NCBI RefSeq assembly: GCF_056712565.1
Contig: NZ_CM160072.1
DNA: 64,000 bases
Direction: 5' to 3' (one strand)
Shown here: piece after piece, positions 13,461 to 14,832 of the stretch
Position numbering within the stretch: position 1 is the first letter of the stretch
How the letters are laid out: every line of letters starts with the position of its first letter
Program-made: the position numbers and the translations under genes
Notes under the pieces: model-generated
Told to the model about the DNA's origin: nothing
Database searches by the model: none
The model's input: the letters and a program-made list of their open reading frames with translations, nothing else

Positions 13461-13757
<297 letters not shown>

Positions 13758-13950
13758 TATTCTGCTCTGGAAGTAGAGTGTTAATTATTTTATAGAAAAA
13801 TCTTAACGCTATTATATTTATTTAAATGATGATATTAGCATAATCATTCACTAAGTTAATTTATATAGTATCTGCCCAGACACTTATTTATAGTTATTAA
13901 AGGCGCGTCCGATTGGTTCACCGGACGCACCTTAAGTACGTTTCCTTGTG

Positions 13951-14031
13951 TTATAAGAACAAAAGGAGCAGCTGTAAAACAGCAATGATGATTTTGATGA
14001 CCCGTTTAATCAGGTATCGGCAATCAGTCAT
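13951..14031 (-). CDS. shoB: Type I toxin ShoB (26-aa hydrophobic peptide)
   Basis: Minus-strand ORF translates to MTDCRYLIKRVIKIIIAVLQLLLLFL*; too short for the ORF track. Confidence 0.7.
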   Translation of the reverse strand: MTDCRYLIKRVIKIIIAVLQLLLLFL

Positions 14032-14393
14032 TCGTTTTTCCTTAAACAAGGAATGCAGCCGTTCAGATTAGCCCTTACATCTCCCCAAAACTGAACGTGC
14101 GAGTTATTGGAATCGAGTGCTGCACTCCACACCAGAGCTTTGACGACACCACTCGTTTCAATGGGGGAATTCAGTGGCATGGTGTAAAGCACAGCAAAAT
14201 TGCCAATAACGAAACCGATTTTAATGTACTTATCAAAAAGCGGTCACGTTAATCTTTTCATCAATGTCGATTTCTTCGTAAAGGCTCGCGTTTTTTATGT
14301 CAGAGATTGCAAGTTGCTTGTACAGGTCAACGAAATTGATCCATAATCATTTTCGTTGGAATCGTGTGCTGCACAAAATTAAAGTTAAAAAGT

Positions 14394-14426
14394 AAAACCC
14401 CCGTTCCTTACCAGTTCGGGGGTTTT
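14394..14426. terminator. Hairpin terminator downstream of acpS
   Basis: aaaacccccg…cgggggtttt followed by a T-rich tract. Confidence 0.5.
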
Positions 14427-14451
14427 ACTTTATAAAGAGAACGGTATTATT

Positions 14452-14832
14452 TTAACTTTCAATAATTACCGTGGCACAAGCATAGTGGCGCTCATCGGCA
14501 AGCGTTACATGCATATTTACAACGCCGAGCTTTTCCGCCAGTTTTAATGCCTCACCCCATAGCCGTAGCCGTGGTTTGCCGAGCTCATCATTGAATACTT
14601 CAAACTGATTAAACGCCAGACCATTGCGGATCCCTGTGCCAAATGCTTTTGCCGCCGCTTCTTTCACAGCAAAACGCTTCGCCAGAAAACGCACTGGCTG
14701 GTGGTGCGTTTTCCAGATTTCCCATTCGTTATCGCTTAATACGCGGCGTGCCAGGCGCTCACCGGATCGGGCGATCACCGCTTCTATGCGAGCGATCTCT
14801 ACAATATCCGTACCTAAACCTAATATTGCCAT
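14452..14832 (-). CDS. acpS: Holo-[acyl-carrier-protein] synthase
   Basis: 126-aa [20 protein letters not shown]…. Confidence 0.95.

What the first reader, a model, noticed from the sequence alone, without database searches (positions are those of the whole stretch)
13760..14450. shoB type I toxin locus with two near-identical 19-bp direct repeats in the flanking non-coding region
The 26-codon ShoB toxin ORF (13951..14031, minus strand) is present with a downstream hairpin (about 13905–13935). In the region where the OhsC antitoxin sRNA is expected there are two copies of ttggaatcg(a/t)gtgctgcac, at 14107–14125 and 14356–14374, about 250 bp apart. I cannot place ohsC precisely from memory. 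The repeats could be promoter or operator elements, or the base-pairing region of the toxin–antitoxin RNA pair.
Basis: partly seen in the sequence, partly recalled or inferred. Interest (0 to 1): 0.35.

Follow-up and report, generated by a model that had tools for sequence, protein, structure and literature searches.

The report
OhsC antitoxin seed and shoB target
The two 19-bp repeats are the already described matching sequences through which the small RNA OhsC pairs with the shoB toxin mRNA in E. coli; this is a textbook feature, though the pair exists as two co-varying versions shared by E. coli and E. albertii.

Summary
The window is E. coli (100% identical to ATCC 11775). shoB lies at 13951..14031 (-). 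The 19-mers lie at 14107-14125 and 14356-14374 and match at 18 of 19 positions, where chance predicts about 0.01 matches. Copy 2 is nt 2-20 of the antitoxin sRNA OhsC (14355..14431 +; Rfam RF02495, 101 bits against a threshold of 50; K-12 gene b4608 by alignment). Copy 1 lies in the shoB 5' UTR, 75-94 nt upstream of the AUG. The two genes are transcribed divergently, so a direct DNA repeat gives complementary RNAs. This is the published 19-nt OhsC/shoB complementarity (Fozo 2008), so the finding is already known. Added here: E. coli has two allele classes that differ at the same 7 positions in both copies. The window-type class is in 1694 genomes (copy 1) and 1696 (copy 2); K-12-type copy 1 is in 3722. 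Across 7 haplotypes, 98.6% of intermolecular pair cells are standard pairs. Same-class duplexes are predicted at -33.5 to -42.2 kcal/mol and cross-class ones at -19.0 to -27.7. Both classes also occur in E. albertii. The window class keeps a central U·U mismatch.

The parts
13951..14031 (-). shoB CDS, a 26-aa hydrophobic type I toxin (MTDCRYLIKRVIKIIIAVLQLLLLFL)
   Evidence: ORF. Annotated shoB (WP_000128777.1) in the 100%-identical record NZ_CP033092.2. The ORF is an intact 26 aa in every sampled locus that carries shoB.
13895..13938 (-). shoB 3' terminator-like hairpin
   Evidence: Inverted repeat I3. It forms a 14-bp stem in the mRNA minimum-free-energy fold. The U-tract that follows is weak (UUUAAU).
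14038..14053 (-). shoB RBS (AAGGAA, 14043-14038), sequestered in a local hairpin with UUCCUU (14053-14048)
   Evidence: Sequence. Predicted unpaired probability of the RBS is 0.08-0.38 in all 5'-truncation forms of the window allele. AAGGAA is named as the RBS in PMC11264685 Table 2.
14107..14125 (-). Repeat copy 1: the OhsC target site in the shoB 5' UTR (mRNA sense GUGCAGCACUCGAUUCCAA). It lies 75-94 nt upstream of the AUG, and pairing extends to 14106 through a G·U
   Evidence: duplexfold maps the duplex to window 14125-14106. Co-variation with copy 2.
14218..14247 (-). shoB promoter (-35 GTGACC 14247-14242; -10 TAAAAT 14223-14218). The inferred TSS is about 14210-14211, giving a 319-nt transcript
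   Evidence: Promoter scan. The hexamers are identical to those listed for shoB in PMC11264685 Table 2. The length fits the ~320-nt full-length transcript reported in PMC5668327 and PMC5397157. The TSS is inferred, not mapped.
14318..14347 (+). ohsC promoter (-35 TTGTAC 14318-14323; -10 CATAAT 14342-14347)
   Evidence: TTGTAC is the 33.1% variant and CATAAT the 100%-conserved -10 in PMC11264685 Table 2. G14355 lies 8 nt after the last base of the -10 hexamer (7 bases between them).
14355..14431 (+). OhsC antitoxin sRNA (not annotated in the RefSeq record of this strain)
   Evidence: Rfam RF02495, 101.3 bits against a gathering score of 50, full-length 1-77. The K-12 ncRNA ohsC b4608 (NC_000913.3 2700520..2700598) aligns to window 14355..14433. 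Fold: free 5' end, weak hairpin at nt 10-20, A-rich linker, strong terminator.
14356..14374 (+). Repeat copy 2: the OhsC 5' seed (nt 2-20 of the sRNA)
14385..14435 (.). Near-palindromic terminator hairpin of OhsC. It also faces the 3' end of convergent acpS (14452..14832 -)
   Evidence: Inverted repeat I2, 19-nt arms, 95% complementary. The minus-strand sub-threshold RF02495 hit of 35 bits is explained by this palindrome, which PMC11264685 also notes.

Best explanation
The two 19-bp direct repeats are the two halves of the RNA-RNA recognition element of the shoB/ohsC type I toxin-antitoxin locus. shoB is transcribed leftward and ohsC rightward from back-to-back promoters that lie between the copies. 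A sequence repeated in direct orientation in the DNA therefore appears in sense in OhsC (nt 2-20) and in antisense in the shoB 5' UTR (about nt 87-105 of the mRNA). The two RNAs can form a 20-bp duplex: 18 Watson-Crick pairs, one terminal G·U and one central U·U mismatch in this strain. Pairing occurs far upstream of the hairpin-sequestered RBS. In K-12 the mRNA is reported to be translated only after about 40 nt are removed from its 5' end. The most likely mechanism is that OhsC binds the processed, active mRNA, blocks a ribosome standby or loading region, and creates an RNase III substrate, which keeps ShoB synthesis off. Shown here: the coordinates, the identity of OhsC, the complementarity, and the co-variation of the two sites. 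Taken from the literature for K-12: repression by OhsC, activation by processing, and RNase III cleavage in the duplex region. Inferred: the TSS in this strain, the standby mechanism, and the non-cross-reactivity of the two allele classes.
For: OhsC is placed by Rfam at 101 bits and by transfer of the K-12 annotation. The promoters lie between the copies and have hexamers identical to the published ones. Duplexfold puts OhsC nt 1-20 on window 14125-14106 at -36.2 kcal/mol, against -18.7 ± 2.4 for 1000 shuffles (z = -7.2, none as low). Co-variation: K-12 differs from the window at the same 7 positions in both copies. Over 7 distinct haplotypes, 138 of 140 intermolecular cells are standard pairs, 6 pairs change on both sides, and sliding the register drops pairing to 26-53%. 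Position 11 runs A-U (K-12), then G·U (L004, L007, L008, L011, L014), then G-C (E. albertii L021, L022, L025). All 5 transition differences between copy 1 and copy 2 are in the direction that gives G·U for this strand assignment, never A·C. Linkage: the window allele is in 1694 genomes at copy 1 and 1696 at copy 2, and K-type copy 1 is in 3722; the two copy-1 counts sum to 5416 of 5425. Literature: 19-nt complementarity of the OhsC 5' end with the shoB 5' UTR (PMC3919570); ~320-nt and ~280-nt ('+40') transcripts with only the processed one translated (PMC5668327, PMC5397157, PMC7708055); RNase III cleavage sites in the shoB/OhsC duplex region in vivo (PMC6212723). Removing 30-40 nt from the 5' end raises the predicted unpaired probability of the target from 0.16 to 0.34 (window allele) and from 0.22 to 0.45 (K-12).
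Against: No expression or interaction data exist for this strain, and the shoB TSS is inferred from a promoter match. The window allele carries a central U·U mismatch, so its duplex is weaker than K-12's (-34.2 against -41.4 kcal/mol). The pairing requirements of OhsC have not been determined experimentally (PMC11264685). The gain in predicted accessibility after processing is modest. The K-versus-window co-variation is one linked block and counts as one evolutionary event, not seven. The primary paper (Fozo 2008) could not be read here, so its content is cited through later papers.
Confidence: 0.93

Rival explanations
1. The repeats are DNA operators, that is, binding sites for a transcription factor such as CpxR that controls the divergent promoters.
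For: CpxR binds the shoB-ohsC intergenic region at two predicted boxes and regulates both genes (PMC9600279; PMC11264685). Two direct repeats 249 bp apart that flank a divergent promoter pair could in principle be operators.
Against: Both copies lie inside the transcribed regions, at about +87 of shoB and +2 of ohsC, not at the promoters. The 19-mers contain no GTAAA half-site. The published CB2 box overlaps the ohsC -35, which lies elsewhere. A factor's operator should be conserved, but the core is replaced at 7 of 8 positions between alleles while copy-to-copy identity is kept. All transition differences between the copies are in the G·U-compatible direction, a constraint that applies only to RNA pairing.
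Confidence: 0.02
2. The repeats are a chance match or a functionless remnant of a small duplication, possibly kept alike by gene conversion.
For: Short two-copy repeats are often chance matches. Gene conversion between direct repeats could in principle keep two copies alike.
Against: The expected number of such matches in the whole window is 0.01. Similarity stops sharply at the 19-mer edges. The copies are kept alike across 5,400 genomes and two species while the 143-bp spacer between them diverges by 15-20%. A 19-bp tract is, from general knowledge, below the usual minimum for efficient RecA-dependent conversion. Copy 2 coincides exactly with the 5' end of a validated sRNA.
Confidence: 0.02
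3. Same pairing, different downstream mechanism, as in hok/mok/sok. OhsC would block translation of a leader ORF (14180..14028, 50 codons) whose stop overlaps the shoB AUG (ATGA), and shoB translation would be coupled to that ORF.
For: The ORF exists, contains the OhsC target (codons 19-25) and ends in ATGA on the shoB start codon. It stays open in both allele classes in E. coli.
Against: No Shine-Dalgarno sequence precedes its ATG. The ATG (mRNA nt 32) would be removed in the translationally active +40 mRNA (PMC7708055). The ATG is ATA in L013 and in L023, L024 and L026. The frame is broken by a 1-nt deletion in L019 and L020. Every difference seen in the translations changes an amino acid.
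Confidence: 0.03
4. Same pairing, but repression is mainly through RNase III-dependent mRNA decay and not through blocking of a standby or loading site.
For: RNase III cleavage sites were detected in the shoB/OhsC duplex region in vivo (PMC6212723). RNase III is required for OrzO to suppress ZorO toxicity in the analogous system (PMC4147584).
Against: For tisB/IstR-1 and zorO/OrzO, competition with standby ribosomes is the demonstrated or proposed primary step and cleavage follows (PMC5668327, PMC4147584). No experiment on shoB separates the two. The tools here cannot discriminate them.
Confidence: 0.25

Closest known systems
shoB/ohsC type I toxin-antitoxin locus of E. coli K-12 (Fozo et al. 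2008; ohsC = b4608, Rfam RF02495)
   Same: The synteny is the same (yfhL - shoB - ohsC - acpS). The toxin is a 26-aa protein with one substitution relative to K-12. The promoters match the published ones, the OhsC body and terminator are identical, and the position and length of the complementarity are the same (19 nt, OhsC 5' end against the shoB 5' UTR).
   Different: The 8-nt core of the pairing block is GAATCG(A/U)G here and AGGGUGCA in K-12, in both partners. The duplex here has a central U·U mismatch, whereas K-12's is perfect. The promoter spacer differs by about 20%. RefSeq does not annotate ohsC in this strain.
tisB/istR-1 (E. coli)
   Same: The sRNA is encoded divergently next to the toxin gene. 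A short complementarity of about 18-21 nt joins the sRNA 5' end to the toxin 5' UTR far upstream of a sequestered RBS. The primary transcript is inert and a 5'-processed form is active. The duplex is cleaved by RNase III.
   Different: The sequences are not homologous. tisB is controlled by LexA, and a standby site and pseudoknot have been demonstrated for it. For shoB these are only hypothesised (PMC7708055).
zorO/orzO and zorP/orzP (E. coli O157:H7)
   Same: The layout is divergent, with 18-nt 5'-end seed pairing to the 5' UTR. The pairing block varies between copies and gives specificity. Seventeen discontinuous pairs with one internal mismatch are enough for repression, which is comparable to the 18/19 pairing here.
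   Different: In zor/orz the variant specificities are paralogous copies within one genome, which is thought to avoid cross-talk. In shoB/ohsC the two specificities are alleles of a single-copy locus.
ibs/sib and hok/sok (cis-antisense type I systems)
   Same: A small hydrophobic toxin is repressed by an sRNA through RNA pairing. Sib RNAs discriminate their cognate targets through variable recognition domains.
   Different: In those systems the sRNA is encoded on the opposite strand of the toxin gene, so complementarity is automatic and extensive (at least 60 nt). Here complementarity has to be maintained between two separate DNA sites, which is why it shows up as a direct repeat. The mok-like leader ORF test failed here.

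Membership tests
shoB/ohsC type I toxin-antitoxin locus | 26-aa hydrophobic ShoB ORF | tested here: met
   ORF at 13951..14031 (-). It is annotated shoB, WP_000128777.1, in the identical RefSeq record. NCBIfam has no HMM that hits it, so membership rests on annotation and on near-identity to K-12 ShoB.
shoB/ohsC type I toxin-antitoxin locus | OhsC sRNA matching the curated covariance model | tested here: met
   RF02495 scores 101.3 bits against a gathering score of 50, E = 7e-17, model positions 1-77 of 77, at 14355..14431 +.
shoB/ohsC type I toxin-antitoxin locus | Divergent, non-overlapping gene arrangement between yfhL and acpS | tested here: met
   The same order is seen in 5342 of 5426 complete E. 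coli genomes that cover at least 80% of the query.
shoB/ohsC type I toxin-antitoxin locus | About 19 nt of complementarity between the OhsC 5' end and the shoB 5' UTR | tested here: met
   18 of 19 Watson-Crick pairs plus a terminal G·U. Co-variation.
shoB/ohsC type I toxin-antitoxin locus | OhsC represses ShoB synthesis or toxicity, and ShoB depolarises the membrane | not testable with these tools
   Reported for K-12 (Fozo 2008, as cited in PMC5668327 and PMC8309996). Not tested for this allele.
Divergent 5'-UTR-targeting type I systems (tisB/istR-1, zorO/orzO, dinQ/agrB, shoB/ohsC) | The sRNA pairs distal to the RBS in a long 5' UTR | tested here: met
   The target at 14107-14125 lies 75-94 nt upstream of the AUG at 14031.
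Divergent 5'-UTR-targeting type I systems (tisB/istR-1, zorO/orzO, dinQ/agrB, shoB/ohsC) | Inert primary transcript activated by 5' processing, with a standby site occluded by the sRNA | tested here: inconclusive
   In silico, removing 30-40 nt roughly doubles target accessibility while the RBS stays paired. Processing to +40 is reported for K-12. A standby site has not been shown for shoB.
hok/mok/sok-type translational coupling through a leader ORF | A conserved, translated leader ORF that overlaps the toxin start codon | tested here: not met
   An ORF with an ATGA overlap exists. However, its start codon is lost in L013 and in L023, L024 and L026, its frame is broken in L019 and L020, and the substitutions seen are nonsynonymous.
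CpxR box (operator) | GTAAA-N5-GTAAA-like tandem half-sites in the promoter region | tested here: not met
   Neither 19-mer contains GTAAA (sequence). Both lie in transcribed sequence downstream of the promoters. The published boxes CB1 and CB2 are separate elements, and CB2 overlaps the ohsC -35.

The most novel reading that the evidence does not exclude
shoB/ohsC is a single-copy locus that carries two old RNA-recognition alleles, core GAAUCG(U/A)G and core AGGGUGC(A/G). They are predicted not to cross-react and each is changed in concert in the toxin mRNA and the antitoxin. Both classes occur in E. coli (about 31% and 69% of complete genomes) and in E. albertii. The allele classes are more diverged from each other (15-20% in the promoter spacer) than either class is between the two species (4-9%). 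That pattern suggests a trans-species polymorphism, possibly under balancing selection, or repeated exchange between the species. A mismatched recombinant, with the toxin target of one class and the antitoxin of the other, would be self-poisoning, which would explain the near-complete linkage. I found no description of this in the papers I could read. PMC11264685 noted 'large variation' in the pairing region and left pairing potential unassessed. Fozo 2008 and Fozo 2012 could not be read and may already show strain alignments.
Probability: 0.4. Interest if true: 0.45.

Novelty: already known. Interest (0 to 1): 0.22.

Why it matters
The repeat itself adds nothing new. It is the published OhsC-shoB pairing element, correctly spotted from raw sequence. 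The comparison across strains has modest value. It gives natural co-variation evidence, including an A-U, G·U, G-C series and strict G·U-compatible asymmetry, for an interaction whose pairing requirements have not been mapped experimentally. It shows that the O157/B2-type allele works, if it works, with one internal mismatch. It also defines two natural and presumably orthogonal seed-target pairs that could be swapped in simple experiments to test specificity and the cost of mismatched toxin-antitoxin recombinants. Finally, RefSeq annotation omits ohsC in this strain although Rfam finds it easily.

Tried and rejected
- **The search for related loci with the 26-aa ShoB protein.** I replaced it with a degenerate DNA pattern for MTDCRYLIKR on the species-representative genomes. 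That scan found only six Escherichia loci. It cannot see homologues whose N-terminus differs.
- **NCBIfam scan of ShoB.** No family matched.
- **Primary papers.** Fozo 2008 (PMC2597788), Fozo 2012 (doi 10.4161/rna.22568) and Kawano 2005 (PMC549416) are not held. A RyfB/RyfC search gave nothing. Mapped transcript ends and the original pairing figure therefore come second-hand.
- **Literature search for co-variation.** The search was badly specified and uninformative. 'OhsC' plus 'albertii' found only a reference-list mention.
- **Leader-ORF (mok-like) hypothesis.** Tested and rejected.
- **Operator and promoter readings.** Rejected on position and on the pattern of co-variation.
- **Other Rfam hits.** The sub-threshold hits over 14310-14497 (Thr and His leaders, STnc370, mir-5, plastid psbA, and minus-strand ohsC at 35 bits) are all explained by the palindromic terminator and were rejected.
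- **The one terminator-like hit of the simple scan.** The site at 13983-13971 (-) lies inside the shoB CDS and is not the terminator.
- **A third co-varying element.** I considered pairing between the shoB mRNA 5' end and the target. K-type haplotypes carry either G or A at the relevant position (G·U or A-U), so it is compatible with pairing but not diagnostic.
- **Metagenome scan for further allele classes.** Not run. In E. coli the two copy-1 classes already account for 5416 of 5425 genomes.

Full report
**1. The observation**

The window around 13500-14800 reads yfhL (+), shoB (-), an unannotated gap, then acpS, pdxJ and recO (-). The segment 13700-14500 is 100% identical to E. coli ATCC 11775 (NZ_CP033092.2). 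The locus is present in 5425 of 5426 complete E. coli genomes, always on the chromosome. RefSeq annotates shoB at the position that corresponds to window 13951..14031 (-).

The repeat finder returns the pair as its top direct repeat. The copies are at 14107-14125 (TTGGAATCGAGTGCTGCAC) and 14356-14374 (TTGGAATCGTGTGCTGCAC), 18/19 identical and 249 bp apart. In the whole 64-kb window, on both strands and with up to 3 mismatches, only these two sites match. Shuffles give an expectation of 0.01.

**2. What the two copies are**

Rfam's ohsC_RNA model (RF02495) matches 14355..14431 (+) over its full length, at 101.3 bits against a gathering score of 50. The K-12 record annotates ncRNA ohsC (b4608), and its first base aligns to window G14355. 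Copy 2 is therefore nt 2-20 of OhsC.

A sigma-70-like promoter lies just upstream on the + strand (TTGTAC, spacer, CATAAT, 14318-14347). Another lies on the - strand (GTGACC, 18 nt, TAAAAT, 14247-14218). These are the same hexamers that a 2,000-genome survey lists for ohsC and shoB (PMC11264685).

A shoB start near 14210-14211 gives a 319-nt transcript up to the terminator hairpin. That fits the reported full-length RNA of about 320 nt (PMC5668327, PMC5397157). Copy 1 then lies in the shoB 5' UTR, about nt 87-105 of the mRNA and 75-94 nt upstream of the AUG.

The two genes are transcribed in opposite directions, so a direct repeat in the DNA gives complementary RNAs. [quoted passage not shown]

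**3. Energetics and structure**

RNAduplex places OhsC nt 1-20 on window 14125-14106. The duplex has 18 Watson-Crick pairs, a terminal G·U and a central U·U.
- With the first 34 nt of OhsC the energy is -36.2 kcal/mol, against -18.7 ± 2.4 for 1000 dinucleotide shuffles (z = -7.2).
- OhsC folds with a free 5' end, a weak 4-bp hairpin, an A-rich linker and a strong terminator (z = -4.1).
- In the full-length shoB leader the target is predicted to be mostly paired with the first 32 nt or so of the transcript (mean unpaired probability 0.16).
- Removing 30-40 nt raises that probability to 0.34, and from 0.22 to 0.45 in K-12. The RBS (AAGGAA) stays in a local hairpin with UUCCUU.

This fits the published picture. 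Only the '+40' processed mRNA is translated, and OhsC pairs far upstream of the RBS, as in tisB/IstR-1 and zorO/OrzO, where a ribosome standby site is occluded (PMC7708055, PMC5397157, PMC4147584). RNase III cleavage sites have been mapped in vivo within the shoB/OhsC duplex region (PMC6212723). The standby step is an inference for shoB.

**4. Comparative evidence**

K-12 differs from the window at 7 of 19 positions in copy 1 and at the same 7 offsets in copy 2 (14110-14114 and 14116-14117; 14359-14363 and 14365-14366). The K-12 pair is a perfect TTGAGGGTGCATGCTGCAC at both sites.

Divergence between the two haplotypes is concentrated as follows:

| Segment | Divergence |
|---|---|
| Copy 1 | 37% |
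| Copy 2 | 35% |
| Promoter spacer | 19.6% |
| shoB, rest of the UTR, OhsC body | 0-5% |

Allele-specific megablast queries, with flanks shorter than the 28-nt word, gave these counts:
- Window-type copy 1: 1694 genomes.
- Window-type copy 2: 1696 genomes.
- K-type copy 1: 3722 genomes.

The two copy-1 classes sum to 5416 of 5425. Two classes in near-complete linkage therefore cover essentially all E. coli. The K-type copy-2 query found 3086 genomes. That lower count is expected, because a common A-to-G variant breaks the seed word.

Minor variants are informative.
- Many K-type strains have G at OhsC nt 11 opposite U, a G·U pair (L004, L007, L008, L011, L014).
- E. albertii K-type loci have G opposite C, a G-C pair. 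This completes an A-U, G·U, G-C path.
- The other differences between copy 1 and copy 2 are L013 position 9, E. albertii K-type position 7, E. albertii window-type position 15 and the -1 position. All are transitions in the one direction that gives G·U and not A·C for this strand assignment.

A formal count on 7 distinct haplotypes gives 98.6% standard pairs and 6 pairs with changes on both sides. Shifted registers give 26-53%. The K-versus-window block should be counted as one event.

**5. Two specificity classes shared by two species**

I used the E. albertii YfhL protein to fetch complete loci. Their flanking yfhH gene is 99.3-99.9% identical to the E. albertii type strain and about 88% identical to the window. 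Five of these eight loci carry the window-type core, with the same U·U mismatch, and three carry the K-type core.

In the promoter spacer, window-type and K-type differ by 19.6% within E. coli and 15.5% within E. albertii. The same class compared across species differs by 9.1% (window-type) and 4.2% (K-type). Flanking genes differ by about 9% between the species. The dimorphism is therefore either older than the species split or has been exchanged between the species.

Predicted duplex energies are -33.5 to -42.2 kcal/mol within a class and -19.0 to -27.7 across classes. The cross-class values are close to the shuffle background. By analogy with OrzO, which needs 15 continuous pairs or 17 pairs with one mismatch (PMC11264685), the classes should not cross-repress. 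This is untested.

[quoted passage not shown] I could not read Fozo 2008 or Fozo 2012, which may already show strain alignments.

**6. Rivals**

- **Operator or promoter element.** Rejected. Both copies are transcribed, neither overlaps a hexamer or carries a CpxR half-site, and the core is replaced between alleles while copy-to-copy identity and G·U-compatible asymmetry are kept.
- **Chance or inert duplication.** Rejected on the shuffle statistics and on the maintenance of the pair.
- **Leader ORF.** An ORF at 14180..14028 contains the target and ends in ATGA on the shoB start codon, which suggested hok/mok-like coupling. It has no SD, and its ATG would be removed in the +40 mRNA. The ATG is lost in L013 and in three E. 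albertii loci, and the frame is broken in two others. The substitutions seen are nonsynonymous. Rejected.
- **RNase III decay against standby occlusion as the main repressive step.** This cannot be resolved with these tools.

**7. Verdict**

The finding is real and correctly located. Its explanation is the already known OhsC-shoB base-pairing element, so novelty is 'already known' and interest is low. The side result is a linked, co-varying, two-species dimorphism of the recognition core, with a conserved internal mismatch in the window class. It is modestly interesting and cheap to test.

Noticed in passing
window 14028-14192 (-), ATG at 14180: The shoB leader holds an ORF of 50 codons from its ATG. 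It contains the OhsC target and its stop overlaps the shoB start codon (ATGA), a layout like mok/hok. It is not conserved as a gene: the ATG is lost in L013 and in L023, L024 and L026, the frame is broken in L019 and L020, and the substitutions seen are nonsynonymous.
   Followed up: yes
window 14116 / 14365: The only mismatch between the two copies (A against T, giving U·U in the RNA duplex) is kept in every window-type locus sampled, in both E. coli and E. albertii. A perfect match would add about 4.4 kcal/mol. U11 pairs with A19 in the weak OhsC 5' hairpin, which may be why it is kept.
   Followed up: partly
window 14212-14354: The 143-bp spacer that holds both promoters differs by about 20% between the two allele classes, while the flanking transcribed parts differ by 0-5%. 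The published CpxR box CB2 overlaps the ohsC -35, which is TTGTAC here and TTGTAA in K-12, so CpxR control of ohsC may differ between the classes.
   Followed up: partly
window 14385-14435: The OhsC terminator is a near-perfect palindrome that also faces the 3' end of convergent acpS (stop at 14452), so it may act as a bidirectional terminator. It produces a sub-threshold minus-strand ohsC hit and several spurious leader and miRNA hits in Rfam.
   Followed up: partly
window 14355-14431; L001 (NZ_CP033092.2): RefSeq/PGAP does not annotate ohsC in ATCC 11775 or in any of the other non-K-12 E. coli records inspected, although the Rfam model scores twice its threshold. Only the curated K-12 record carries it.
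   Followed up: yes
L009 (NZ_CP144930.1, E. coli SCPM-O-B-9504): An IS5-family element (ISKpn26-like transposase) sits between yfhL and ohsC. No shoB is annotated and copy 1 is absent, while ohsC remains with a K-type seed. This is an antitoxin-only strain of the kind mentioned in PMC11264685.
   Followed up: partly
L019, L020 (E. albertii, window-type class): A 1-nt deletion in the A-run between the shoB RBS and the AUG (AAGGAAAACGAATG instead of AAGGAAAAACGAATG) shortens the SD-AUG spacing.
   Followed up: no
L010 (E. albertii type strain, NZ_BBMY01000043.1): The contig ends inside the shoB-ohsC promoter spacer, so ohsC is on another contig of that draft assembly. Complete E. albertii genomes had to be used instead.
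   Followed up: yes
window 14201-14210 against 14098-14109 (shoB mRNA nt 2-14 against nt 98-109): The extreme 5' end of the predicted primary shoB transcript (GUUAUUGGCAAUU) resembles the OhsC 5' end. It is predicted to pair with the same part of the target site that the OhsC seed uses. This would be an intramolecular mimic that masks the site until the first 40 nt or so are removed.
   Followed up: partly
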